64,000 nt of DNA from an uncultured Clostridiaceae bacterium (GTDB lineage Bacteria; Bacillota; Clostridia; TANB77; CAG-508). How positions within the stretch are numbered: position 1 is the stretch's first letter; each line of letters begins with the position of its first letter. Both the position numbers and the translations under genes were made by a program. Shown here piece by piece: positions 6,115-56,241 of the stretch. Below the pieces are notes generated by a model. That model was not told where the DNA came from. It worked only from the letters and a program-made list of their open reading frames with translations, and made no database searches. The DNA is taken from NCBI GenBank assembly GCA_948356915.1, contig CAOJCG010000002.1:128484-192483 (forward strand), read 5' to 3'.

Positions 6115-6168
6115 CTAGGGTAGTTTCTTCGAAGAACGGGTCGCCGAAGGCGGCGACCCCTACATACG
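6115..6168. repeat. CCCCTACA-family unit ctagggtagtttcttcgaagaacgggtcgccgaaggcggcgacccctaca, with a GC hairpin on a GAAG tetraloop.
   Basis: Homologous to 40855-40913 and 15481-15536. Confidence 0.55.
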
Positions 6169-7843: not shown

Positions 7844-8160
7844 AATTTTCTCCTTCTTTCTTTTTCCTAGCTATTATAACAAATTTTAGTTTATACTTCA
7901 AGATATATAGTATTTAAGTTTTGATATTTTAAAAAAAATATTGAAACTTAGAATATAGTACACTTTTAATTCTCTATTTTTTACTTTTCATTTTAACCCT
8001 TTTATCTATTATAACTTTATATTATACTTTCCTTATTTTGTTTATTATTGCGTCTTTATTTTACATATTTTAATATTTCCTCTCTATGTAGTTAGCAATA
8101 TATATATCAGTCATTGAATTTCGATAATTATATAAACCTTCCTGCCACACCGAAACAAAA

Positions 8161-8250
8161 GGCACGGTGCCCCATGCCCTACATTTTAAATCGATTTTTC
8201 CTATTCAATAAAAAGATGGGGATTAATTACTCCCCATCTTTTTTCATTTC
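8161..8250. repeat. CCCCTACA-family unit plus a terminator hairpin aagatggggattaattactccccatctttttt.
   Basis: ggcacggtgccccatgccctaca...atcgatttttcctat. Confidence 0.5.
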
Positions 8251-8505
8251 TTGCTGTCTGGCTTACTTAAGGTTTATCCTTCTAACGCCTAACCTTCTAA
8301 GCCAAGAGGTTCTTGTCCATTCCTTCAAATGCCACTTGCCAGCACCTGCAAAGAGTCTGATCTTTTCTGCTGGAACTTCCATGGTAATGTAGTCTGACCA
8401 CTCTCTTCCTGCGATCTCGCAAAGGTTAAAGATTGCATAGTAACCTGTTTTGCGGTATTAGTAATAGCCTCTACATATATAATGAATATTTAATATTAGC
8501 TGTAT

Positions 8506-8540
8506 AAAAATAGCCCCTCATAATTTAGGGGTTATTTTTA
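8506..8540. terminator. Hairpin terminator downstream of RNase J.
   Basis: agcccctcataatttaggggtt flanked by A/T runs on both strands. Confidence 0.5.
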
Positions 8541-13047: not shown

Positions 13048-13064
13048 TACTTAACCTTTCTTTA

Positions 13065-13095
13065 GGAAAGATTTGGACGCGTCCCAAATCTTTCC
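13065..13095. repeat. Perfect palindrome ggaaagatttggacgcgtcccaaatctttcc. This is copy 1 of a GACGCGTC-centred palindromic repeat.
   Basis: Read directly from the sequence. Near-identical copies occur at 14272-14299 and 40789-40816. Confidence 0.7.
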
Positions 13096-13225
13096 ATTTT
13101 GTTAACTTATTAATTTTATATTTACATAAACTGACTTTTTTTCTCTATATATGTTATACTTATATCATATTGTAACTTATTATTCAACTACGTGTATAGT
13201 TGTGTTTAATTAAAGGAGGATTTCT

Positions 13226-14195: not shown

Positions 14196-14271
14196 CTCTT
14201 TTTTACTAATATTATTATACCATTATAATTATAATTTTACTATATATTTTTTATATTCTATATTTTAAATT

Positions 14272-14324
14272 AAAAGATTTGGACGCGTCCCAAATCTTTA
14301 CCAAATCTTTACCAAATCTTTACT
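14272..14324. repeat. Copy 2 of the GACGCGTC-centred palindrome, followed by a 3x tandem 11-nt repeat accaaatcttt.
   Basis: aaaagatttggacgcgtcccaaatctttaccaaatctttaccaaatctttact. Confidence 0.7.
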
Positions 14325-15465: not shown

Positions 15466-15508
15466 ATGCTAGCAAGTTTTCTATAAAGCAATAAAAGCAG
15501 TTTCTTCT

Positions 15509-15636
15509 GGGTCGCCCTTTAGTAGCGACCCCTACAACGTGGAATGTATTGCCTAAAATTGATTTTTCTTATACTATAAAAAGGGGGTAAGTTGGTAAAT
15601 TCTCTTCTGTATTCCTATTAGATATAAGCCCCTACA
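15509..15636. repeat. CCCCTACA-family units. The hairpin gggtcgccctttagtagcgaccc is identical to 40882-40904. The core aaattgatttttcttatactat is followed by a second cccctaca.
   Basis: Read directly from the sequence. Confidence 0.55.
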
Positions 15637-23055: not shown

Positions 23056-23145
23056 ATTTTTTCCTCCTAAAATAAATTATTATTTTTAGTTTTAAAAATT
23101 ACTTTTTATATTTTACTATATAGCCAATAATTAATTGTAATAAAA

Positions 23146-23186
23146 GTGTGTCAATATCCCCCGTTCCATTTGACACACTTTTTTAC
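23146..23186. repeat. Hairpin repeat: the 7-bp arm gtgtcaa pairs with ttgacac around a C-rich loop, followed by a T-run. A terminator-like element.
   Basis: Related copies at 35282-35320, 55060-55146 and 62594-62645. Confidence 0.6.
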
Positions 23187-23297
23187 AGCCTACTTTTCTG
23201 CTTTTATCTTCTCTTCATAAGTTGTGAGTTCTTTTTTACTTTCACTTCTAATACTAAAAGATATGGGGATTAACACATTTTTTAGTGCTCCTTTGTT

Positions 23298-27777: not shown

Positions 27778-28242
27778 ATGGAATATGATAAAAATGTATG
27801 CCCTGTAGTAGATGTTGATGGCATTATAGCTTCTGGTAAACAATTTGACCTTGAAATAAAACTTCCAGAAGATAACAGAAATGTTATATATGGAGTTGTT
27901 AAAGATTGCTATGGTGATCCAATTTGTGATGCGGTTGTAAAATTAATAGAAGTTGTATGTGAATGTGGTAAAGAAGAAAGAAGACCTGTTTCTCATACTT
28001 TTACAGATAAAGAAGGAGAATTCGTTTTCGGACCTTTATGTGATAATAAATTTTATGAAATCCAAATATGGGTTGACCGTGTAAGACACTGCAAAATATG
28101 TACAGAAGTTAAACACGAAGGAAAATGCCTAAAAGGTGTAAAAATGGATTGTAAACATGACTGCAAATGCGAAAGACCTTGCGAAAAACCTTGCTTAAGA
28201 ACTGAAGTTTCTGAAGAATGTTGTGAGGATATCGATGAATAA
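27778..28242 (+). CDS. Cysteine-rich hypothetical protein, with a prealbumin-like N-terminal domain and a C-rich C-terminus.
   Basis: ORF track, with an RBS aaaggatg. 20 Cys in 154 aa. Confidence 0.45.
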   Translation: MEYDKNVCPVVDVDGIIASGKQFDLEIKLPEDNRNVIYGVVKDCYGDPICDAVVKLIEVVCECGKEERRPVSHTFTDKEGEFVFGPLCDNKFYEIQIWVDRVRHCKICTEVKHEGKCLKGVKMDCKHDCKCERPCEKPCLRTEVSEECCEDIDE

Positions 28243-28247
28243 AAAGG

Positions 28248-28320
28248 CTGAATGTCAATAATTAAGGTGGAAAACTTTTAAAAGTTTTCCACCTTAATTA
28301 TTGACATTCAGTCTTTTTTT
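28248..28320. terminator. Perfect 32-bp inverted repeat followed by a T-run. A bidirectional terminator between convergent genes.
   Basis: ctgaatgtcaataattaaggtggaaaactttt | aaaagttttccaccttaattattgacattcag tcttttttt. Confidence 0.75.
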
Positions 28321-31399: not shown

Positions 31400-31546
31400 T
31401 GTAGGGGCGATTTTAAAATTAATTTCTCCTATGCAACAATAATGCTGTTTTTTTTTGGGGCTATATGAGTCGCCGATGGTGGCTATTTCTACAATGTGAA
31501 ATGTATTTTCAAAAATTGATTTTTCATATTTTATAAATCCCCTACA
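31400..31546. mobile_element. 147-bp MITE-like element with terminal inverted repeats tgtaggggcgattt / aaatcccctaca. It carries the family core aaattgatttttcatat.
   Basis: The inverted repeats are read directly from the sequence. The internal unit is shared with the CCCCTACA repeat family. Confidence 0.5.
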
Positions 31547-35201: not shown

Positions 35202-35281
35202 TTTTTGCTCCTTTTCAAAGTAAATGTAAAAAAGGAGTACCAAAAGGGATTTAAGAAACTGACACATCCTTAAAAGATAAA

Positions 35282-35320
35282 GCGTGTCAATTTTCCTCGT
35301 CCCTTTTGACACACTTTATT
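35282..35320. repeat. GTGTCAA...TTGACAC hairpin repeat copy.
   Basis: gcgtgtcaattttcctcgtcccttttgacacac. Confidence 0.55.
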
Positions 35321-35336
35321 ACATTTCCTTATTGTT

Positions 35337-35915: not shown

Positions 35916-36080
35916 AAGACATATCCTCCAAATTAAAAGTTTTTATTATTTACATTTTTCTTATTCGCAATTATACTATTTTTTTAGGTATTTGTAAATA
36001 TTTTAGACGTAAGTTTTTATAATTTCAAATATAATTGTAAGGCTTTGATAATGTACATAAAAAATTTTTAGATTATTAAT

Positions 36081-36200
36081 TTACAAGTATTGGAAAATAT
36101 TGTATATTATATTTAGCAATAAAAATTTCTTTAAAAAAGTGGTTCAGGATGAAATGAACTCCCCTAGTCTATCCACTAGGGGAGTTTCCTTATTTCTCAA
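36081..36200 (+). ncRNA. Type I TA-like module, copy D (sRNA-only). It has a promoter (TTACAA-N16-TATATT) and ~85-nt of hairpin sRNA. Its terminator abuts the 3' end of lipoprotein gene 36228..36734.
   Basis: Homologous to the modules at 39.0, 42.2 and 43.2 kb. Hairpin gaactcccctagtctatccactaggggagtttcc. Confidence 0.4.
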
Positions 36201-36227
36201 GTTCTTTAAGTATTAACTAAATAATTA

Positions 36228-36734
36228 TTACTTTAATTCTCTAAAAGTTACCATATAAAAATCGCCATTAGTATAGCCTCCAGTATTCATAGAAGTACTT
36301 ATTCCGAGAACTTCATTGTTGTTTCCATCAAAATTTGTTAGAAATCTAAGATATTCTTTCTCACTTCTTGTTCTAAATATTGAAACTTTACCAGTGACTC
36401 TCACATCTTCTCTAGGCTCGTCTAACTTTTTATAGGTTACCATATAAAAATCATCACTGGTGTAACCTCCAGTATTCATACAAGTAGTCACTCCAAGGAT
36501 CTCATTATTCCTTTCGTCAAAATTTTCTAAAAAAGTTATATACTCTTCTACTTTTCTTGTTTCATATACTGATACATTACTATATTCTTCTACTTTGGAC
36601 ACTTGAGCTTTGGTTTTCGCTTGTGTTCCTTCATTAGGAAGTGTAATAATTTCACTTCCTAATGAATCGCTACAGCTAGCCAAAATTAGCATAAAAAAGC
36701 ATACTAAAGTAATTGTGATAATCCGTTTTCTCAT
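36228..36734 (-). CDS. Lipoprotein with an internally duplicated ~55-aa domain.
   Basis: Lipobox LASC, and two repeats ...FL(E/T)NFD(E/G)(R/N)NNE(I/V)LG(V/I)(T/S)T(C/S)MNTGGYT..DFYMVT(Y/F). Confidence 0.6.
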   Translation of the reverse strand: MRKRIITITLVCFFMLILASCSDSLGSEIITLPNEGTQAKTKAQVSKVEEYSNVSVYETRKVEEYITFLENFDERNNEILGVTTCMNTGGYTSDDFYMVTYKKLDEPREDVRVTGKVSIFRTRSEKEYLRFLTNFDGNNNEVLGISTSMNTGGYTNGDFYMVTFRELK

Positions 36735-39006: not shown

Positions 39007-39030
39007 TATTAAAACTATTCTTATTTTTTA

Positions 39031-39303
39031 TTGACAAAAGTTGGAAAATATTGTATATTATATTTAGCAATGAAAATTGCTTTAAAAAAGTTGTTCATGG
39101 CGAAATGAAATCCCTTAGTGTGTGCGTACACTAAGGGATTTTCCTTATTTGTCAAAATCTTTTAGTATTAAGTAAATAATTGTTAATGCTATTATCTTTA
39201 GTATTCTATCATGGCGATTACCTCCTTTCTACCTTTTAGGTAAAAGGTGTCTTCATTATACATTATGTATATTTATTTTTCTAGAGCTTCGACAAAACTT
39301 CTT
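39031..39303. repeat. Type I TA-like module, copy C. The promoter (TTGACA-N17-TATATT) and sRNA (about 39066-39150, +) are intact. The peptide gene (39145..39212, -) is frameshifted by a 1-nt loss and lacks an in-frame start.
   Basis: Aligned with copies A and B. The RBS cctcc is retained. Confidence 0.45.
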
Positions 39304-39349
39304 ATTATATGGCATTTATTCTTATTTTTTGCAATTATAATTTCTTTAA

Positions 39350-40632: not shown

Positions 40633-40775
40633 AGGGCACAGTGGTATCATTGCCAACGAGGTATTTCAACAAACGGCCCCTACATCGTAAAATTTGATTT
40701 TTCCTATACTACAAGAAAGAGGCATAGTGGTGTCATTTCTAACAAGTATTCCAACAAACGGTGTCCCTACATTTT
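40633..40775. repeat. Tandem pair of CCCCTACA-family units, ggca(c/t)agtgg...aacaaacgg(c/t)(c/g)cctaca, with the aaatttgatttttcctatact core between them.
   Basis: Read directly from the sequence. See also 6115-6168, 8161-8215, 15509-15636, 40855-40913 and 42455-42525. Confidence 0.5.
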
Positions 40776-40788
40776 TTTATTTTGTTGG

Positions 40789-40830
40789 TAAAGAATTGGT
40801 CGCGTCCCAATTCTTTACCAATTCTTTATA
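40789..40830. repeat. Copy 3 (variant) of the GACGCGTC-family palindrome, aaagaattggtcgcgtcccaattcttt, plus a 2x tandem accaattcttt.
   Basis: Read directly from the sequence. Confidence 0.6.
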
Positions 40831-40854: not shown

Positions 40855-40913
40855 ATTTCTAGGGTTATTTCTTCGAAGACTGGGTCGCCCTTTAGTAGCG
40901 ACCCCTACAATTC
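40855..40913. repeat. CCCCTACA-family unit ctagggttatttcttcgaagactgggtcgccctttagtagcgacccctaca.
   Basis: Read directly from the sequence. Confidence 0.55.
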
Positions 40914-42177: not shown

Positions 42178-42250
42178 ATTGCCAATACTTTTGTTTACAT
42201 TTTTTATTTTTTTAATTGACAAATGTTGGGAAATAATGTATATTATATTT

Positions 42251-42335
42251 AGCAATGTAAATTGCTTTAAAAAAGTTGTTCATAGTGAAACGAACTCCCC
42301 TAGTGTGTGAGACTAGGGGAGTTTCCTTATTTGTC
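42251..42335 (+). ncRNA. Type I TA-like module, copy A: candidate antitoxin sRNA driven by TTGACA(42216)-N17-TATATT(42239). Two hairpins, ending in a bidirectional terminator.
   Basis: Consensus promoter read directly. agcaatgtaaattgct and gaactcccctagtgtgtgagactaggggagtttc hairpins, then a T-tract. Confidence 0.5.
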
Positions 42336-42395
42336 GAATTCTTTGAGTATTAAGTACACTATTATTAATGCAATTATCTTCTGTATCCTGCTCAT
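42327..42395 (-). CDS. 22-aa hydrophobic peptide MSRIQKIIALIIVYLILKEFDK, a candidate type I toxin. Its 3' end overlaps the sRNA terminator.
   Basis: Strong SD aaaggagg 8 nt upstream of the ATG. Conserved in copy B with conservative substitutions (S2N, I7M). Confidence 0.5.
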   Translation of the reverse strand: MSRIQKIIALIIVYLILKEFDK

Positions 42396-42454
42396 AGTGA
42401 TTACCTCCTTTCTACCTTTTCGGCAAAAGGTGGCTTTCTTTACCGAGTAAAAGG

Positions 42455-42525
42455 CACGGTGCCCCGTGCCCCTACTGTACAAAATTTTAAATTGATTTTT
42501 CTTATATAATAAGGAAAGTCGGTGC
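42455..42525. repeat. CCCCTACA-family unit ggcacggtgccccgtgcccctac...aaattgatttttcttatataat.
   Basis: Near-identical to 8161-8215. Confidence 0.5.
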
Positions 42526-42987: not shown

Positions 42988-43188
42988 TATAACTACCTCC
43001 TTGAATTTTCTTGGAGGCTTAGAAACCTCCAAGTTGTTGAACTATTGGTTTCTAAACAATCTAACATTTGTATTATATAATATTTTACATAAAATTGCAA
43101 GCGGTTTTACAAAAATTTACTTATAAATAATTATTATATTTTTCATTTTTCGATTGACAAATGTTGGAAAATAATGTATATTATATTT

Positions 43189-43270
43189 AGCAATGTAAAT
43201 TGCTTTAAAAAAGTTATTCATAGAGAAATGAACTCCCCTAGTCTTGTACACTAGGGGAGTTTCCTTATTT
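43189..43270 (+). ncRNA. Type I TA-like module, copy B sRNA, driven by TTGACA(43154)-N17-TATATT(43177).
   Basis: Same architecture as copy A. Hairpin gaactcccctagtcttgtacactaggggagtttcc. Confidence 0.5.
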
Positions 43271-43333
43271 GTCAAATTCTTTGAGTATTAAGTACACTAT
43301 TATTAATGCTATCATCTTCTGTATTCTATTCAT
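43265..43333 (-). CDS. 22-aa hydrophobic peptide MNRIQKMIALIIVYLILKEFDK, a candidate type I toxin.
   Basis: SD aaaggagg, and convergent with the sRNA. Its 5'-UTR carries the anti-SD-like hairpin ccttttgccgaagagg. Confidence 0.5.
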   Translation of the reverse strand: MNRIQKMIALIIVYLILKEFDK

Positions 43334-43422
43334 AGAGATTACCTCCTTTCTACCTCTTCGGCAAAAGGTGGTATTATTATATATTATGTTAAATTGTTTT
43401 TCTAGTACTTCGACAAACGTTC

Positions 43423-46400
43423 TTATTTTTCGACTATACTTTTTATTTCTTCTAGAATCTCTTGCTTTTCTTTTTTGCCAATGTAGTTATAATTATTTCC
43501 ATAGCTACCTGCTTTAAATTGGCATATCGATTTATATTCACAGTATTCGCATGGTGTTTTCTTTGTTTTTGTATTGTAATATGGGTTTAAGTTTATATTT
43601 CCGCTTAGTATTTCTTCTGATATCTCTTTTATTATTTTGGCTGTATATTTTTGTAAGTCTTCAAATTGCTCTTTTGTTACTGCATTTGACTTTTTGCTTA
43701 GGTTTCCTTCTTTATCTATATATGCTGGTACTACATTTGAGTTTCCGCTTTCTAGCTTTTTGTCCATCATTTTTACTACTTTTACATCTGCTAGTATTAA
43801 CCCATTCATTTTAAATTTTTTCTTTAGTTCTTCTTCTATTTGTTCATCTGACATATATTTTTCTGCTTTTATTACTGGGTCTATTAAGCTAAAGTAAAGT
43901 ACCCCTGCTGGGAACATTTCTTCTATTTTACATGTTGCATCTAGGTATGTTAAGAGCTGAATTTGAAGCCCTGCTACTACTTCATTTAAGTCTATATTTT
44001 TTACTGAAGATTTATAGTCTATTATTCTTATATATTTTCCGTTTTCATCTTTTGCTAAGTCTATTCTGTCTATTTTTCCGGTTATTTCTACTTTCTTTCC
44101 ATCCTGTAATTGCAGGCTTATTGGTTCGTAGTCTTTTCCTTTTTTAAATTCTAGCTCACTTCCAAATACCTGAAAGTCACTTTCTTTCAAACTTTCTATT
44201 ATATATTTCATAGACTTTTGTATTACTCTTTTTAGCCTTCTTGTTAGTAATTTATATTTGTCTGTACTTGTAAATATATAGTTTTTACTAATTGATAGTT
44301 TTTCCTCTACAATTTTGTCTATTAGTTCATACATGTGCTCTTCTGTTATTTCTTTTACATCTAATTCTTTTTCTCTTATTGTTTTAAAGAATGTATCTAT
44401 TACATCATGCATAAAGTTTCCTGTATCTACCATTTGTACTTTGAATTCGTTTGTATCACGTATTTTTAAACCATATTTTAAATAGTATGAAAAACCACAT
44501 GCTTTATATTGTTCTAGTCTTGATACTGTTGTATTTAGTGTGTTTCCATATAATTTGTCTATATTTTCTTTTGAAATTTTTTCTGGCTTATTTGTATAGT
44601 TTAATGCTTTTATTGCTGATTCTAGTTTATATTTCCAATCTTCGTTTTTACTTAAAATTTCATATATTTTAAACCAAATTTTATCTATTTTTTCTCCATC
44701 TCTAAACTTTGCTAAATTTACTATTAGTTCATCAAAACAAGAATTTCCTGAAATTATTTCATTTTGTTCATACACCATATCGCTTTCTTCTTTTAATTTT
44801 GGAAAAATCTTTTTTATTTTTGTTACTAAAATTGATGGTCTTAATGAGCTTCCATCAATATTTGTTGATACATAAGATAGAAATAGCTTTTCTTCTGCTG
44901 TGCAAAATGCTTTATAAATGCTAAAGTTATCTTCATAAAGTGCTTCTAAAGTGCCTTTTGCAAGTTCTATTCCTTTTTCTTTTAGTTTTTTTCTGTCTTC
45001 ATCTCCTAAAAATCCTTCGTCTTTATGAACTGTAGGAAATGCTCCATCATTCATTCCTAAAATAAATACTGCTTTTACTTTATGTGTTCTACTTCTTTCT
45101 ATGTCTCCTACTATTACTTGGTCAGCAGTTTGTGGTATTCTTCCTAAGCCACTTGAGTTTAAACCTATTTTTACTAAGTTCATATATTTTTCAAAGCTTA
45201 TTTTCTCTTCTTCAAATATCATATTTAGTTCATCTAGCACATTTATGACTATGTTCCATGCCAATTCTTGTTCTTTTGATAGCTCTATATGTCCTTCTTT
45301 TTCTAATTTTTCTTTTTTATCTATAAGTGTTTTATCTATTTTGTTTTCTATTAGAAAGTTATATATTGCCTTTGTTATATTACCAACTGTTTTGTTTCTC
45401 AAAATATCTTCTTTTAACTTAACTAATGGATTTACTACTATGTTTCTAATGTTTTTTATTCTTTCTAATTGCTCTTTATTCTCCTTTGTTTCATCACCAA
45501 AGTTCCATTCTCCTTGGTACCATTTTGAGCCTTTTATTCCCCACTTTTTAGAATAGTTTTCAAACATATATATATCATCATTATCTAAGTTTAAAAAACC
45601 TGTTTTTATATAATTTATTATAGAATCATAAGACCAGCTTTTTGCGTATACATCTAATATACTCATTATATATTTTATAAAAATGTTTTGACTAAGTTCT
45701 TTTTTCTCATCTATAAATACTGGTATATCATATGCTTTAAATATCGCTTTTACTAAACTTGAATAAGTATCTAAATTTTTTGTTATTACTGAAATGTCTT
45801 TATATCTGTAATTTTCATTTTTTACTAATTTTATAATTTGTTTTGCTACATTTTCTATTTCTGAATATGCATTTGTAGCTAAAAATAACTTTATATTATC
45901 CACATTTCTTTCATATATTGTGTATGGTATTTTATATATGTTTTTCTCTATATGTTTAAGTTCTTTACTTTTAAATCTATACATTTCTTCTAGAAATATT
46001 GTTTTTTCACATTCTATATTATTTTTTCTTGCTAAATATAATAGCTTGTCAGCTGTTTGCTTGTTAGAATAGAATATATCTGAATCTTCATTTGTTCCCA
46101 TGTCTAAGTTATTTGTTGTTACTGTTATAGATATTTGTTTGGCTACTTTTAAAAGTTTTTCTATTATTTTATATTCTTGCTTTGTATAACCTGTAAATTC
46201 ATCTATATATATTAAAGTATCTTTAAACATATTTGTATTATCTAGGTTAGCCGCGAGTATTGTTAATACATCATTTTCGTCTATATATTTATCTTGCAAG
46301 CTTTTTTCAAATTTTTGATATATATATTGTAAGTCTTTTAACTTTTCTTTTAAGTATCTATCTTCTTCTATTTCTATTAAATTTTGTATGTTCTCTAAAG

Positions 46401-54673: not shown

Positions 54674-55040
54674 TTATTCTTTTGCTCCTTTTTACTTTTT
54701 TCTCAATTAACATTTTTGTGTCAAAAAAGGACGTCTTTTTTTGACAGTCCATTTTATTAAAAATTATTTAGATGGTAAAGGCCTAAGTAAATTTTACGGT
54801 TTAGGTCTAGAAGAATTTCTCTATTTTCTACTAACCATTACTGTTTAGCCGTTTCCGTTTAAAGAAAATATCTCCTACTACTATGTATAAAAGTAATAGA
54901 TAGAAACCAGATCGCCACTTAAAATCCGTACCTTAATCCATAAGCCTCCATGCTTTTAATTTAAAGCAAACATTCTAGAAGTTTTCCTTGGGCATACTAA
55001 AAGCTATTGCTAGTCTTTTTTGCAATAATAGTTTCATAAC

Positions 55041-55158
55041 TATAAAGAAGCTATAAAAAGGTGTGTCAAAAGGGATTGGGGATATTGACATACTTTATTT
55101 TTTAAAGATGTGTCAATATCCCCGTCCATTTTGACACACTTTTTTATAGCTTCTTTGG
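55041..55158. repeat. Composite nested palindrome. Outer inverted repeats ataaagaagctataaaaag / cttttttatagcttctttgg enclose two GTGTCAA...TTGACAC hairpin units.
   Basis: Read directly from the sequence. Confidence 0.6.
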
Positions 55159-55701
55159 AAAATTAAATTTGGCCAAATTTAATTTTCTTTTTAGTTAATC
55201 CCAGTATTATCACTCGAGACAGGCTACGCTATGCGTTTTATGTCTTGGCATTCAGCATAGGTTACTCTTAAGCATTTTTCTAAAAAGGTTTCATTAGATA
55301 TATTGCCTAAGCCTCCGCGAAAATAGGGCTTCCTTATATATGCCATTATATAATACCCTAATTTCTTACTCCCTGGATACACACAAAACTGGCATTTCGC
55401 GCATAAACAAGAAACTTCAACGATGTGCCCTTTAGTGGATTTTTAGCCCCACCCTCACAATAGTTGTATGCTACTAGAATAATGCACCATCGTTTTTATT
55501 ATAGCATATTTTTCCAAATTTTCAAGTTCATTTATTGTTATTTCACTTAATTTTCACAAAAATATGATATTAAATATAAATATAGAGGCATTATATATAA
55601 ATTGTTACATAAAAAATATCTAAAACCTCTTGTATTTAATTCAATTATGTGTTATTATATTAAATAGTCAATTTAACAAAAACTTATAGGAGGTGTAAGA
55701 A

Positions 55702-55899: not shown

Positions 55900-56241
55900 T
55901 TAAATTATAAATAGAAGTAGGATGCATACTACTTTTTATATGTAGATTTCTTAAGAAATAGTAAAATAAAATAGGTCAAATTAAATGAGGTGAATATTAT
56001 TATTCATTTGATTTAATTTGATCTATTTTTAGTATATATTATATATTTTAATCACTAAATTTTTCTTCTCTAAAAAAATATTTAAGGACTGTCCCCAGCG
56101 CTTCTGAATTCGGAAGCATTAAGGACCGTCCCTACCGTTCCCTACTCTTTTATTCCAAATATTAATTTTATGAATCCTCTTAAAAATTTTGGTACTTTTT
56201 TTACTACTATTGTCATTTTTACCACTCTCCTTTTTATGTAT

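What the first reader, a model, noticed from the sequence alone, without database searches (positions are those of the whole stretch)
31400..31546. CCCCTACA hairpin-repeat family, including a 147-bp MITE with terminal inverted repeats
At least seven intergenic sites carry a unit built from three parts: a variable GC-rich hairpin (for example gggtcgcc-loop-ggcgaccc or ggcacggtgccc(c/a)(g/t)gccc), then the invariant cccctaca, then about 15-25 nt, then aaattgatttttc(c/t)tata(c)t, often ending in a -10-like TATAAT/TACTAT. The sites are 6115-6168, 8161-8215, 15509-15636, 31400-31546, 40633-40775, 40855-40913 and 42455-42525. The 31400-31546 copy has the motif in inverted orientation at both ends (tgtaggggcgattt ... 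aaatcccctaca), as in a miniature inverted-repeat transposable element. Copies at 15509 and 40882 share an identical 23-nt hairpin. Two copies abut the type I TA-like modules. I do not recognise the family. Its embedded promoter-like elements could affect neighbouring gene expression.
Basis: seen in the sequence. Interest (0 to 1): 0.55.

Follow-up and report, generated by a model that had tools for sequence, protein, structure and literature searches.

The report
REP hairpin repeats of a RAYT system
The CCCCTACA hairpin repeats are REP elements (short GTAG-tagged palindromes spread by a domesticated single-strand-DNA transposase) in an uncultured low-GC gut Clostridia genome, so this is a known kind of repeat in a little-studied host and not a new MITE.

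Summary
The repeats are real. CCCCTACA occurs 7 times against 0.35 expected, and the AAATTGATTTTTCYTATA module 5 times against 0.38.

On the gene (minus) strand the motif reads TGTAGGGG followed by a GC-rich hairpin. That is a GTAG tag plus a stem opening with three G-C pairs, the published signature of REPs tied to RAYT transposases of subclass 2.4 / group 4.

The same hairpin fills related gut Clostridia MAGs. There it flanks, and even sits inside, Y1-transposase genes with the NH[IFV]H / WQ / YIxNNP motifs.

- **Intact REPs:** only five window copies are intact hairpins (6138-6164, 8159-8183, 15509-15536, 40882-40909, 42451-42477). The others are tag-only remnants.
- **The 147-bp "MITE":** it is a unique, decayed REP mosaic whose "TIRs" are two inverted tags. 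It has no second copy and no target-site duplication.
- **Turnover:** orthologous spacers in close relatives are empty or hold different REP content, which indicates turnover.
- **Promoter reading:** the AAATTGATTTTTC module is a genuine linked repeat of unknown role. A promoter reading is not supported.
- **Main gap:** no RAYT gene lies in the window, and the rest of the genome could not be read.

Verdict: a new member of a known kind, of modest interest.

The parts
6115..6164 (-). REP A, type 1. TGTAGGGG + GTCGCCGCC/TTCG/GGCGACCC hairpin (6138-6164) + 3' extension GTTCTTCGAAGAAACTACCCTAG. Lies 30 nt after the gltX stop codon.
   Evidence: Sequence. Fold -21.6 kcal/mol, z -2.4. The same unit, including the TCTTCGAAGA extension, is found in 5 other MAG species.
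8159..8183 (-). REP D, type 2. (T)GTAG + AGGGCATGG/GGCA/CCGTGCCTT hairpin followed by TTGTTT, so terminator-like on the gene strand.
   Evidence: z -2.6; flagged terminator-like. Conserved at the orthologous site in L136 and L137.
8188..8209 (-). Linker module X (the gene strand reads TTGAATAGGAAAAATCGATTTAAAAT). Sits directly after the terminator at 8210-8243.
15507..15537 (-). REP C, type 1. Identical over 31 nt to copy B.
   Evidence: 100% identity; z -2.6.
15556..15578 (-). Linker module X, exact match to the 18-mer.
15580..15636 (-). Tag-only unit (type 3). TGTAGGGGCTTATATCTAATAGGAATAC...CCCCC with no stable fold. Related units occur in L123 and L134.
   Evidence: (z +1.2).
31400..31546 (.). 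Decayed REP mosaic (the proposed 'MITE'). It holds an inverted tag at 31400-31407 (remnant of a GGGGCGATT-type REP), an X-like stretch at 31416-31433, a degenerate type-1 REP at 31467-31494 (tag mutated to TTTCTACA), X at 31513-31530, and a tag at 31539-31546.
40633..40684 (-). Tag-only unit F1 (TGTAGGGGCCGTTTGTTGAAATACC...GTGCCCTTTTGTTTT), unstructured. Lies just upstream of the RBS of the GH3 gene.
   Evidence: (z +0.8).
40691..40713 (-). Linker module X, between F2 and F1.
40719..40771 (-). Tag-only unit F2, a direct repeat of F1 (tag gtCCCTACA).
   Evidence: z +1.5.
40855..40910 (-). REP B, type 1, with the same 3' extension as A (…TCTTCGAAGAAATAACCCTAG). Lies 27 nt after the pgeF stop codon.
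42451..42477 (-). REP E, type 2 (GTAGGGGCACGG/GGCA/CCGTGCC + TTTTAC).
   Evidence: z -4.5.
42489..42511 (-). Linker module X, exact match. Together with REP E it occupies the place where the other TA-module copies have their toxin promoter.

Best explanation
**What it is.** The sites are REP elements (repetitive extragenic palindromes) of the GTAG-tagged class. They match the sub-kind associated with RAYT / TnpA_REP Y1 transposases of subclass 2.4 (Bertels' group 4). On the gene strand each copy is (T)GTAG followed by a hairpin whose stem opens with three G-C pairs.

**How it most likely works (inferred from the family).**
1. When the strand carrying GTAG is single-stranded, it folds. That strand is the G-rich strand here, which would be the lagging-strand template at replication.
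2. A single-copy RAYT encoded elsewhere in the genome binds the hairpin plus tag.
3. It cuts at a nearby CT/CA dinucleotide chosen with GTAG as guide, and rejoins the DNA.
4. This copies, swaps or deletes REPs and the DNA next to them. No target-site duplication is made.

**The subtypes.** At least three hairpin subtypes share the tag: GGGTCGC, GGGCACGG and remnants of GGGGCGAT. Many copies in this window are decayed, tag-only relics.

**Effects when transcribed.** The hairpins sit in 3' UTRs and intercistronic spacers. Type 2 copies carry a T-run and would act as extra terminators.

**The AAATTGATTTTTC module.** It is a linked, conserved linker on the 5' side of the tag. It most likely travels with the REP, as BIME linkers do. 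Its own function is not established.
For: **Shown in the window**
- The tag and the module are far above chance.
- There are five stable hairpins directly 3' of GTAG.
- All five lie on the G-rich strand, between co-directional genes.
- Copies B and C are identical over 31 nt although they lie 25 kb apart.

**Shown across species**
- Most are low-GC gut Clostridia MAGs, often as inverted doublets 15-25 nt apart.
- The flanked unit TGTAGGGG...GACCC-GTTCTTCGAAGA recurs in 5 other species.

**Enzyme link**
- In L027, L058, L105 and L063 (relatives), and in L003, L010 and L056 (other phyla), the motif flanks or lies inside a Y1_Tnp gene.
- The best NCBIfam hit is REP_Tyr_transpos.
- The best PDB hit is E. 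coli TnpA_REP 4ER8, E = 1e-6.
- The motifs NHIH / WQ / YIxNNP, REPs inside the gene, and stems starting with three G-C pairs match the published description of subclass 2.4 (PMC6006769).

**Turnover at orthologous sites**
- The CarD-DnaG spacer is 344 nt here, 477 nt with a different mosaic in L123, and 188 / 141 nt without any REP in L126 / L128.
- The gltX-DUF951 and MBOAT-DHHW spacers hold different REP content in L136, starting at the same GTAGGGGC junction. L138 and L139 have none.

**Orientation.** In relatives the GTAG strand falls on the G-rich strand 125 times and on the C-rich strand 64 times.
Against: - There is no Y1 / RAYT gene in the 64 kb. The 260-aa ORF beside copy B is PgeF.
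- The rest of this genome could not be read, so a cognate RAYT in this organism is inferred from relatives only.
- The close relative L123 carries a different Y1 protein. From its motifs it looks like subclass 2.1, a class not linked to REPs. This assignment is my own reading of the motifs.
- RAYT hits to NCBIfam NF047646 are below its cut-off (54-72 bits against 80).
- The window has only five intact hairpins and no clean inverted doublet.
- The AAATTGATTTTTC module is not a described REP feature.
- The one biochemical paper I read (PMC8266576) studies group 2 and group 3 enzymes only, and I found no group 4 study. The mechanism is therefore by analogy.
- The orientation bias is confounded with the direction of transcription.
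Confidence: 0.8

Rival explanations
1. A classical MITE family. The elements would be bounded by terminal inverted repeats (tgtagggg... / ...cccctaca) and moved by a DDE-type transposase that recognises the TIRs, with 31400-31546 as a complete copy.
For: - The two ends of 31400-31546 are inverted copies of the tag, and the whole stretch can pair end to end.
- A genuine TIR-bounded element of about 190 nt exists in a related MAG. Its ends are AAATTGTAATTTG / CAAATTACAATTT, it carries an inverted REP pair, and six near-identical copies were seen.
Against: - The 147-bp unit has no second copy in the window or in the loci held at the time, L001-L129.
- It has no target-site duplication (flanks ...aatataga / attctaat...).
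- The inverted similarity is only the 8-nt tag plus ATTT with an indel.
- Every other site carries the tag in one orientation only.
- The TIR of the relative's MITE is absent from the window (matches at chance level).
- The orthologous spacer in L123 shows a different arrangement with both tags in direct orientation.
Confidence: 0.04
2. IS200/IS605-derived palindrome-associated elements (PATEs). The hairpins would be left or right ends of an IS moved by a TnpA_IS200 dimer, not by a RAYT.
For: - The chemistry and substrate type are the same: a single-stranded hairpin with a guide tetranucleotide 5' of it (PMC8266576).
- A Y1_Tnp gene of another type lies in the close relative L123.
Against: - The tag is the canonical REP GTAG.
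- The hairpin recurs inside and beside RAYT-type genes, whose best matches are TnpA_REP rather than IS200.
- There is no pair of distinct left and right ends and no tnpB/ωRNA-like cargo.
- The L123 Y1 gene is not flanked by the tag.
Confidence: 0.06
3. Selected regulatory cassettes rather than mobile DNA. The module X would be a promoter (or operator) and the hairpin a 5' stabiliser or terminator, kept similar by function.
For: - On the gene strand, X always follows a terminator T-run and ends in TAAAAT-like hexamers just before GTAGGG.
- In L059 and L105 a good promoter lies 4-7 nt upstream of a REP that then precedes an RBS.
- X resembles the -35/spacer part of the toxin promoter of the TA modules by eye. 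This was not tested statistically.
- X + REP type 2 is conserved at one orthologous site in three relatives.
Against: - The spacing between X and the tag varies from 4 to 28 nt.
- -35-like and -10-like hexamers are 14 nt apart in most copies.
- The sigma-70 scan finds nothing above shuffles.
- Copies A and B lack X.
- The same hairpin occurs in phyla with 27-71% GC beside RAYT genes.
- Content at orthologous sites is replaced rather than conserved.
Confidence: 0.08
4. Unrelated intrinsic terminators that happen to share a short motif.
For: Types D and E have a T-run after the stem, and D is flagged as terminator-like.
Against: - 7 copies against 0.35 expected for the 8-mer.
- Copies A, B and C have no T-run.
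- B and C are identical over 31 nt.
- The unit is conserved across species with the same boundaries.
Confidence: 0.02

Closest known systems
REPs associated with RAYT / TnpA_REP subclass 2.4 (Quentin et al. 2018, PMC6006769), which equals RAYT group 4 of Bertels et al. 2017
   Same: - 5' GT[AG]G tag at the foot of the hairpin, with the bottom of the stem made of three G-C pairs.
- Several REP subtypes per genome.
- Extragenic position downstream of genes.
- REP copies inserted inside the RAYT gene between the HUH and Tyr motifs (seen in relatives).
- RAYT motifs NH[IFV]H, WQ and YIxNNP.
   Different: - The host is an uncultured 27%-GC gut Clostridia lineage. Di Nocera 2013 (PMC3733652) does not mention Firmicutes or Clostridia, and Quentin 2018 lists subclass 2.4 mainly in Cyanobacteria and Bacteroidetes "and various phyla".
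- Many copies here are decayed and singlet.
- A conserved AT-rich linker (X) sits 5' of the tag.
- In relatives the REP inside the RAYT gene shifts the frame by +1, whereas the paper states that such insertions keep the frame.
E. coli REP / BIME with TnpA_REP (RAYT group 2)
   Same: - GTAG-tagged palindromes.
- Mosaic clusters in which REPs alternate with conserved linker motifs.
- A single domesticated Y1 transposase.
- Roles as 3' mRNA stabilisers and terminators.
   Different: - E. coli REP stems are longer and carry an essential bulge.
- E. coli linkers carry IHF sites.
- Here the stems are short and perfect, the loops are variable, and the linker has no recognisable protein site.
REPINs of Pseudomonas (RAYT groups 2/3)
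   Same: Inverted REP doublets that replicate as a unit. Such doublets are common in the related MAGs.
   Different: The window has no intact doublet. 31400-31546 is at best a heavily decayed one, with 139 nt between the tags.
IS200/IS605 ends and their PATE/MITE derivatives
   Same: Single-strand hairpin substrates, a guide tetranucleotide 5' of the hairpin, no target-site duplication, and a link to the lagging-strand template.
   Different: Those elements have distinct left and right ends and a specific target tetra- or pentanucleotide, and are moved by TnpA_IS200 dimers. None of this is seen here.

Membership tests
REP (GTAG-tagged repetitive extragenic palindrome) | Short (about 20-40 nt) palindrome able to form a stem-loop | tested here: met
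   Five copies fold with z from -1.6 to -4.5. Five further tag copies do not, and are treated as remnants.
REP (GTAG-tagged repetitive extragenic palindrome) | Conserved 5' GT[AG]G tetranucleotide at the foot of the stem | tested here: met
   Every copy reads (T)GTAG directly before the stem.
REP (GTAG-tagged repetitive extragenic palindrome) | Many copies, extragenic, mostly downstream of genes between co-directional or convergent ORFs | tested here: inconclusive
   Twelve tag copies lie in intergenic spacers of one 64-kb window, all between co-directional genes. The genome-wide copy number could not be counted.
REP (GTAG-tagged repetitive extragenic palindrome) | Arrangement in inverted pairs (BIME / REPIN) | tested here: not met
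   There is no intact inverted doublet in the window. It is met in related MAGs and at the orthologous MBOAT-DHHW site of L136.
REP/RAYT system, subclass 2.4 (group 4) | Bottom of the REP stem made of three consecutive G-C pairs | tested here: met
   GTAG-GGG... is seen in types 1 and 2 and in the type-4 remnants. The criterion comes from PMC6006769.
REP/RAYT system, subclass 2.4 (group 4) | A cognate single-copy RAYT gene in the same genome, flanked by or containing the same REPs | not testable with these tools
The feature is met in the relatives L027, L058, L105 and L063, where the same GGGTCGC hairpin lies inside the gene.
REP/RAYT system, subclass 2.4 (group 4) | RAYT motifs NH[IFV]H, WQ, YIxNNP, and similarity to TnpA_REP rather than TnpA_IS200 | tested here: met
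   Tested on the relatives' proteins only. The motifs were read. NCBIfam REP_Tyr_transpos is the best hit but below its cut-off. PDB 4ER8 matches at E = 1e-6.
TIR-bounded MITE | Terminal inverted repeats, target-site duplication, and several copies of the same bounded unit | tested here: not met
   The "TIR" is the 8-nt tag only, there is no duplication of flanks, and there is no second copy.
Any Rfam RNA family | Covariance-model match at these sites | tested here: not met
   Nothing was found at the sites, either at the gathering threshold or at E <= 1.

The most novel reading that the evidence does not exclude
The most novel reading not excluded has two linked parts.

1. In this gut Clostridia clade the REP system may be self-limiting, because the RAYT gene is itself split by one of its own 28-nt REPs. 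The Tyr-motif half lies in the +1 frame yet is under purifying selection (dN/dS 0.12-0.23). Transposase would then be made only after a +1 frameshift at the REP hairpin or after excision of that REP.
2. The unit that moves may be REP plus its 5' linker X, a portable terminator/promoter-like junction. One copy has replaced the toxin promoter of the type I TA module at 42194-42440.
Probability: 0.15. Interest if true: 0.6.

Novelty: new member of a known kind. Interest (0 to 1): 0.33.

Why it matters
REP/RAYT systems have been studied almost only in Proteobacteria and Cyanobacteria. The 2013 survey of GTAG repeats that I read does not mention Firmicutes.

A group-4-type REP population in very low-GC, uncultured gut Clostridia extends the known host range. 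Its orthologous sites differ between relatives with 95-98% protein identity.

It also explains GC-rich islands, assembly breaks and intergenic length variation in these MAGs.

For annotation, these sites should be labelled REP rather than terminator, sRNA or MITE.

The split RAYT gene seen in relatives could be a handle on how such domesticated transposases are kept in check.

Tried and rejected
- **Rfam.** The gathering-threshold and E <= 1 scans gave nothing at the sites. The only real hit is OLE RNA.
- **RAYT in the window.** tblastn with a relative's RAYT gave no hit. I suspected the 260-aa ORF next to copy B from synteny with L123, but it is PgeF. L123's Y1 protein is absent from the window.
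- **Metagenome scan.** The scan for X followed by the tag gave 4 chance hits in unrelated marine contigs.
- **Extending the window.** Look-ups of window-edge proteins did not help. One protein is not on record, and the other returned related species rather than this genome.
- **Relatives' conserved tails.** ACGTTTGCAATTAATTT and ACAAATTACAATTTA are absent from the window or at chance level.
- **Promoter reading of X.** It is not flagged by the consensus scans on either strand.
- **Other readings of X.** I compared X by eye with the SigH, SigF/E/G, CcpA cre, CodY, Spo0A, IHF and dif consensus sequences from memory. None fits, but these were not formal tests.
- **F1/F2 as a tandem riboswitch-like leader.** There is no stable fold and no Rfam hit.
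- **An over-permissive regex for the X core.** It returned mostly noise and was not used.

Full report

The window has 27% GC and carries an OLE RNA gene. Its proteins match uncultured gut "Clostridia / Clostridiaceae bacterium" MAGs.

- CCCCTACA occurs 7 times against 0.35 expected, with 0 of 100 shuffles reaching 7.
- The hexamer CCCTAC occurs 17 times against 7.4 expected. Twelve of these lie in the intergenic sites discussed here, and 11 of those 12 are in the same orientation.
- The second module, AAATTGATTTTTCYTATA, occurs 5 times at 2 or fewer mismatches against 0.38 expected. All copies are on the + strand and each lies 4-28 nt from a tag.

So the family is real.
- Sites 6115 and 40855 lack the second module.
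- The tag varies at two sites (gCCCTACA and CCCCTACT).
- Only five copies have a stable hairpin.

**2. Anatomy**

Nearly all genes here are on the minus strand, and that strand is the G-rich one. Read on that strand, every copy is (T)GTAG followed at once by a stem that opens GGG.

Three hairpin types share the tag.
- **Type 1:** GGGGTCGC-loop-GCGACCC. These are copy A at 6138-6164, B at 40882-40909 and C at 15509-15536. B and C are identical over 31 nt.
  - A and B continue with a small second palindrome and a near-complement of the tag: GTTCTTCGAAGAAAnnACCCTAG.
  - Five other species share the hairpin and the TCTTCGAAGA palindrome, and end in related but variable sequence.
- **Type 2:** AGGGCAYGG-GGCA-CCGTGCCTT followed by a T-run. 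These are copy D at 8159-8183 and E at 42451-42477. D is flagged as terminator-like.
- **Type 4 remnants:** pieces of a GGGGCGATT...AATCGCCCC type form the two ends of 31400-31546. Intact versions occur in L118 and L136.

The units at 15580-15636, 40633-40684 and 40719-40771 keep the tag but do not fold better than shuffles (z +0.8 to +1.5). I read them as decayed copies. Relatives of the 15580 unit exist in L123 and L134.

**3. What it is**

- Most hits are low-GC gut Clostridia MAGs, where the hairpin is often an inverted doublet 15-25 nt apart.
- The same motif also occurs in Megasphaera, Oscillospiraceae, Acidobacteriota and Sphaerobacteraceae.
- The alphaproteobacterial hits lie in a conserved coding sequence and are chance matches.

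In seven loci the motif flanks or lies inside a small gene.
- The gene matches Pfam Y1_Tnp.
- Its best NCBIfam hit is "REP-associated tyrosine transposase", below that model's cut-off.
- After repair of a frame offset, its best PDB hit is E. coli TnpA_REP, 4ER8.

The relatives' proteins carry NHIH, WQ and YIxNNP, and have REPs inside the ORF. Quentin et al. 2018 (PMC6006769) describe exactly this combination for TnpA_Y1 subclass 2.4, which equals RAYT group 4:
- a GT[AG]G tag;
- stems whose bottom is three G-C pairs;
- REPs inserted in the transposase gene.

In L105 and L058 the RAYT lies between the same two genes, upstream of radA. This fits the vertically inherited, single-copy habit of RAYTs.

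The window's repeats are therefore REPs of this class. The survey of GTAG repeats by Di Nocera et al. 2013 does not mention Firmicutes or Clostridia (PMC3733652), so the host is unusual but the kind is known.

**4. Evidence for mobility**

I fetched orthologous spacers from relatives through CarD and GltX homologues.

- **CarD-DnaG spacer**
  - It is 344 nt here and 477 nt in L123 (CarD 98% identical). L123 holds a longer, differently arranged mosaic that starts at the same AATTGTAGGG junction.
  - It is only 188 nt in L126 and 141 nt in L128 (CarD 91%). Those spacers hold just a terminator and the conserved dnaG promoter region.
- **Spacer downstream of gltX**
  - REP A is intact here.
  - L136 has a tag-less variant with a 60-nt insertion between the stem arms.
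  - The copy is decayed in L137 and absent in L138 and L139.
- **MBOAT-DHHW spacer**
  - The window has tag unit + X + REP type 1.
  - L136 (GltX 98% identical) has an inverted pair of a different REP type, starting at the same "aatagatGTAGGGGC".
- **Spacer upstream of gltX**
  - X + REP type 2 is conserved in three relatives.

Such replacement at fixed junctions, together with the identical B and C copies, indicates recent activity. No target-site duplication is seen, as expected for Y1 enzymes.

**5. The 147-bp "MITE"**

The stretch 31400-31546 contains, in order:
- an inverted tag with a type-4 half-stem (31400-31416);
- an X-like stretch (31416-31433);
- a degenerate type-1 REP whose tag has mutated to TTTCTACA (31467-31494);
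- X (31513-31530);
- a tag (31539-31546).

Evidence on its status:
- It has no second copy in the window or in the loci held at the time, L001-L129.
- Identical-strain contigs carry it unchanged.
- L123 has both tags in direct orientation at this site.

It is a decayed REP cluster, not a TIR-bounded transposon. A true TIR-bounded element that carries a REP pair does exist in a related MAG, but its TIR is not in the window.

**6. The second module (X)**

On the gene strand X reads T(T/A)G(T/A)AT-A(G/A)GAAAAATC(G/A)ATT, usually followed by TAAAAT.
- It directly follows a terminator T-run in every case I could inspect: window D and E, and L038, L073, L108, L136 and L137.
- It precedes the tag by a variable distance.
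- It is shared with species about 75% identical at the DNA level.
- In L059 two copies form a palindrome.

Neither strand gives a sigma-70 promoter above chance. On the + strand, two copies would transcribe only a terminator.

By eye, X resembles the -35/spacer part of the toxin promoter of the TA modules.

My reading, with low confidence: X is the conserved 5' linker of the mobilised unit. This is analogous to BIME linkers, or to the stretch between the cleavage site and the hairpin in IS200/IS605 left ends. Its function is open.

**7. Mechanism**

*Shown:*
- the tag, the hairpins and the strand bias;
- the association with RAYT genes in relatives;
- turnover at orthologous sites.

*Inferred from the family* (PMC8266576):
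- the RAYT binds the folded single strand;
- GTAG acts as guide for cleavage at CT/CA 5' or 3' of the hairpin;
- strand transfer spreads or rearranges REPs.

That paper studies group 2 and group 3 enzymes only, and I found no biochemical study of group 4. The G-rich-strand bias fits action on the lagging-strand template: 5 of 5 here and 125:64 in relatives. It is confounded with the direction of transcription.

**8. Limits**

No RAYT lies in the window, and I could not reach the rest of this genome. Whether this organism still has an active cognate enzyme is inferred. The copy number per genome is unknown.

**9. By-catch**

In four relatives the RAYT ORF is offset by +1 exactly at the REP that follows the HUH motif.
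- Removing 28 nt restores the frame in the three relatives examined base by base, L027, L058 and L105 (my reading).
- The downstream 51 codons have dN/dS of 0.12-0.23.
- Many of the top-scoring database clusters are N-terminal-only ORFs, and the ten of these I fetched all end the same way.
- More distant homologues read the same REP in frame as GSPRxATPT.
- This differs from the published statement that such insertions keep the frame. It remains unexplained.

Noticed in passing
L027 1314-1806(+), L058 5141-4607(-), L105 6926-6437(-), L063 about 1055-574(-): RAYT genes of related MAGs are split by a +1 frame offset at a REP inside the ORF. Removing 28 nt (1 nt plus the 27-nt REP) restores the frame in L027, L058 and L105. 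The Tyr-motif half is under purifying selection (dN/dS 0.12-0.23). The ten N-terminal-only database homologues I fetched end in the same frame-0 reading of the REP (RVA..(C/G)DPY.., one variant RVDVGIDPY). More distant homologues read the REP in frame. This could be a programmed +1 frameshift or REP excision.
   Followed up: partly
window 55047-55153 (inside the OLE RNA gene, 54756-55506, minus strand); related copies at 23143-23189 and 35255-35330: A palindromic element of about 106 nt (AAGCTATAAAAAGGTGTGTCAAAAGGGATTGGGGATATTGACA...) sits inside the OLE RNA gene. The relative L135 has only TTTATAAATAA at that spot. Longer versions occur in L108 and L038. This looks like a second, hairpin-type mobile repeat family.
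   Followed up: partly
window 36058-36254, 39009-39330, 42194-42440, 43132-43451: There are four copies of a type I toxin-antitoxin-like module. Each has a + strand sRNA with a TTGACA-17-TATATT promoter, convergent with a minus-strand ORF of about 22 aa (MSRIQKIIALIIVYLILKEFDK), and the two share a bidirectional terminator. In the 42194 copy the toxin promoter region is replaced by X + REP E.
   Followed up: partly
L035 (3 copies), L036, L107, L113: A genuine TIR-bounded MITE of about 190 nt occurs in a related MAG. Its ends are AAATTGTAATTTG / CAAATTACAATTT, it carries an inverted REP pair inside, and six near-identical copies have unrelated flanks.
   Followed up: partly
window 63748-63778 and 63915-63945: Perfect 31-nt inverted repeats flank a relatively GC-rich 136-nt segment. 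This could be an invertible DNA switch or another MITE.
   Followed up: no
window 13050-13105, 14256-14311, 40773-40828: A third repeat family consists of hairpins built on AAAGATTTGGACGCGTCCCAAATCTTT. One copy lies between REP B and unit F2.
   Followed up: no
window 28241-28318: A 78-nt near-perfect palindrome (44-nt overlapping arms, 98% complementary) lies between two ORFs. It draws spurious miRNA-model hits in Rfam.
   Followed up: no
window 63697-63745; also L138 11655-11740, L034, L108: Runs of degenerate GTTAGAG / GTTGGAA-like heptamers (CTAACTTCCAAC on the gene strand) lie just upstream of ribosome-binding sites or downstream of gltX in several relatives.
   Followed up: no
window 56086-56145: Short repeats AAGGAC(T/C)GTCCC(C/T)A with two GTAGGGA-type tags on the minus strand. 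They are possibly further decayed REPs. The region is otherwise about 90% conserved in L135, which lacks the tags.
   Followed up: no
window 8244-8540, compared with L136 8830-9600: The spacer between RNase J and gltX holds the 3' remnant of a 136-aa ORF that is intact in L136. The deletion in the window starts next to a degraded tag (GTAGAGG here, GTAGGGGGG in L136).
   Followed up: partly
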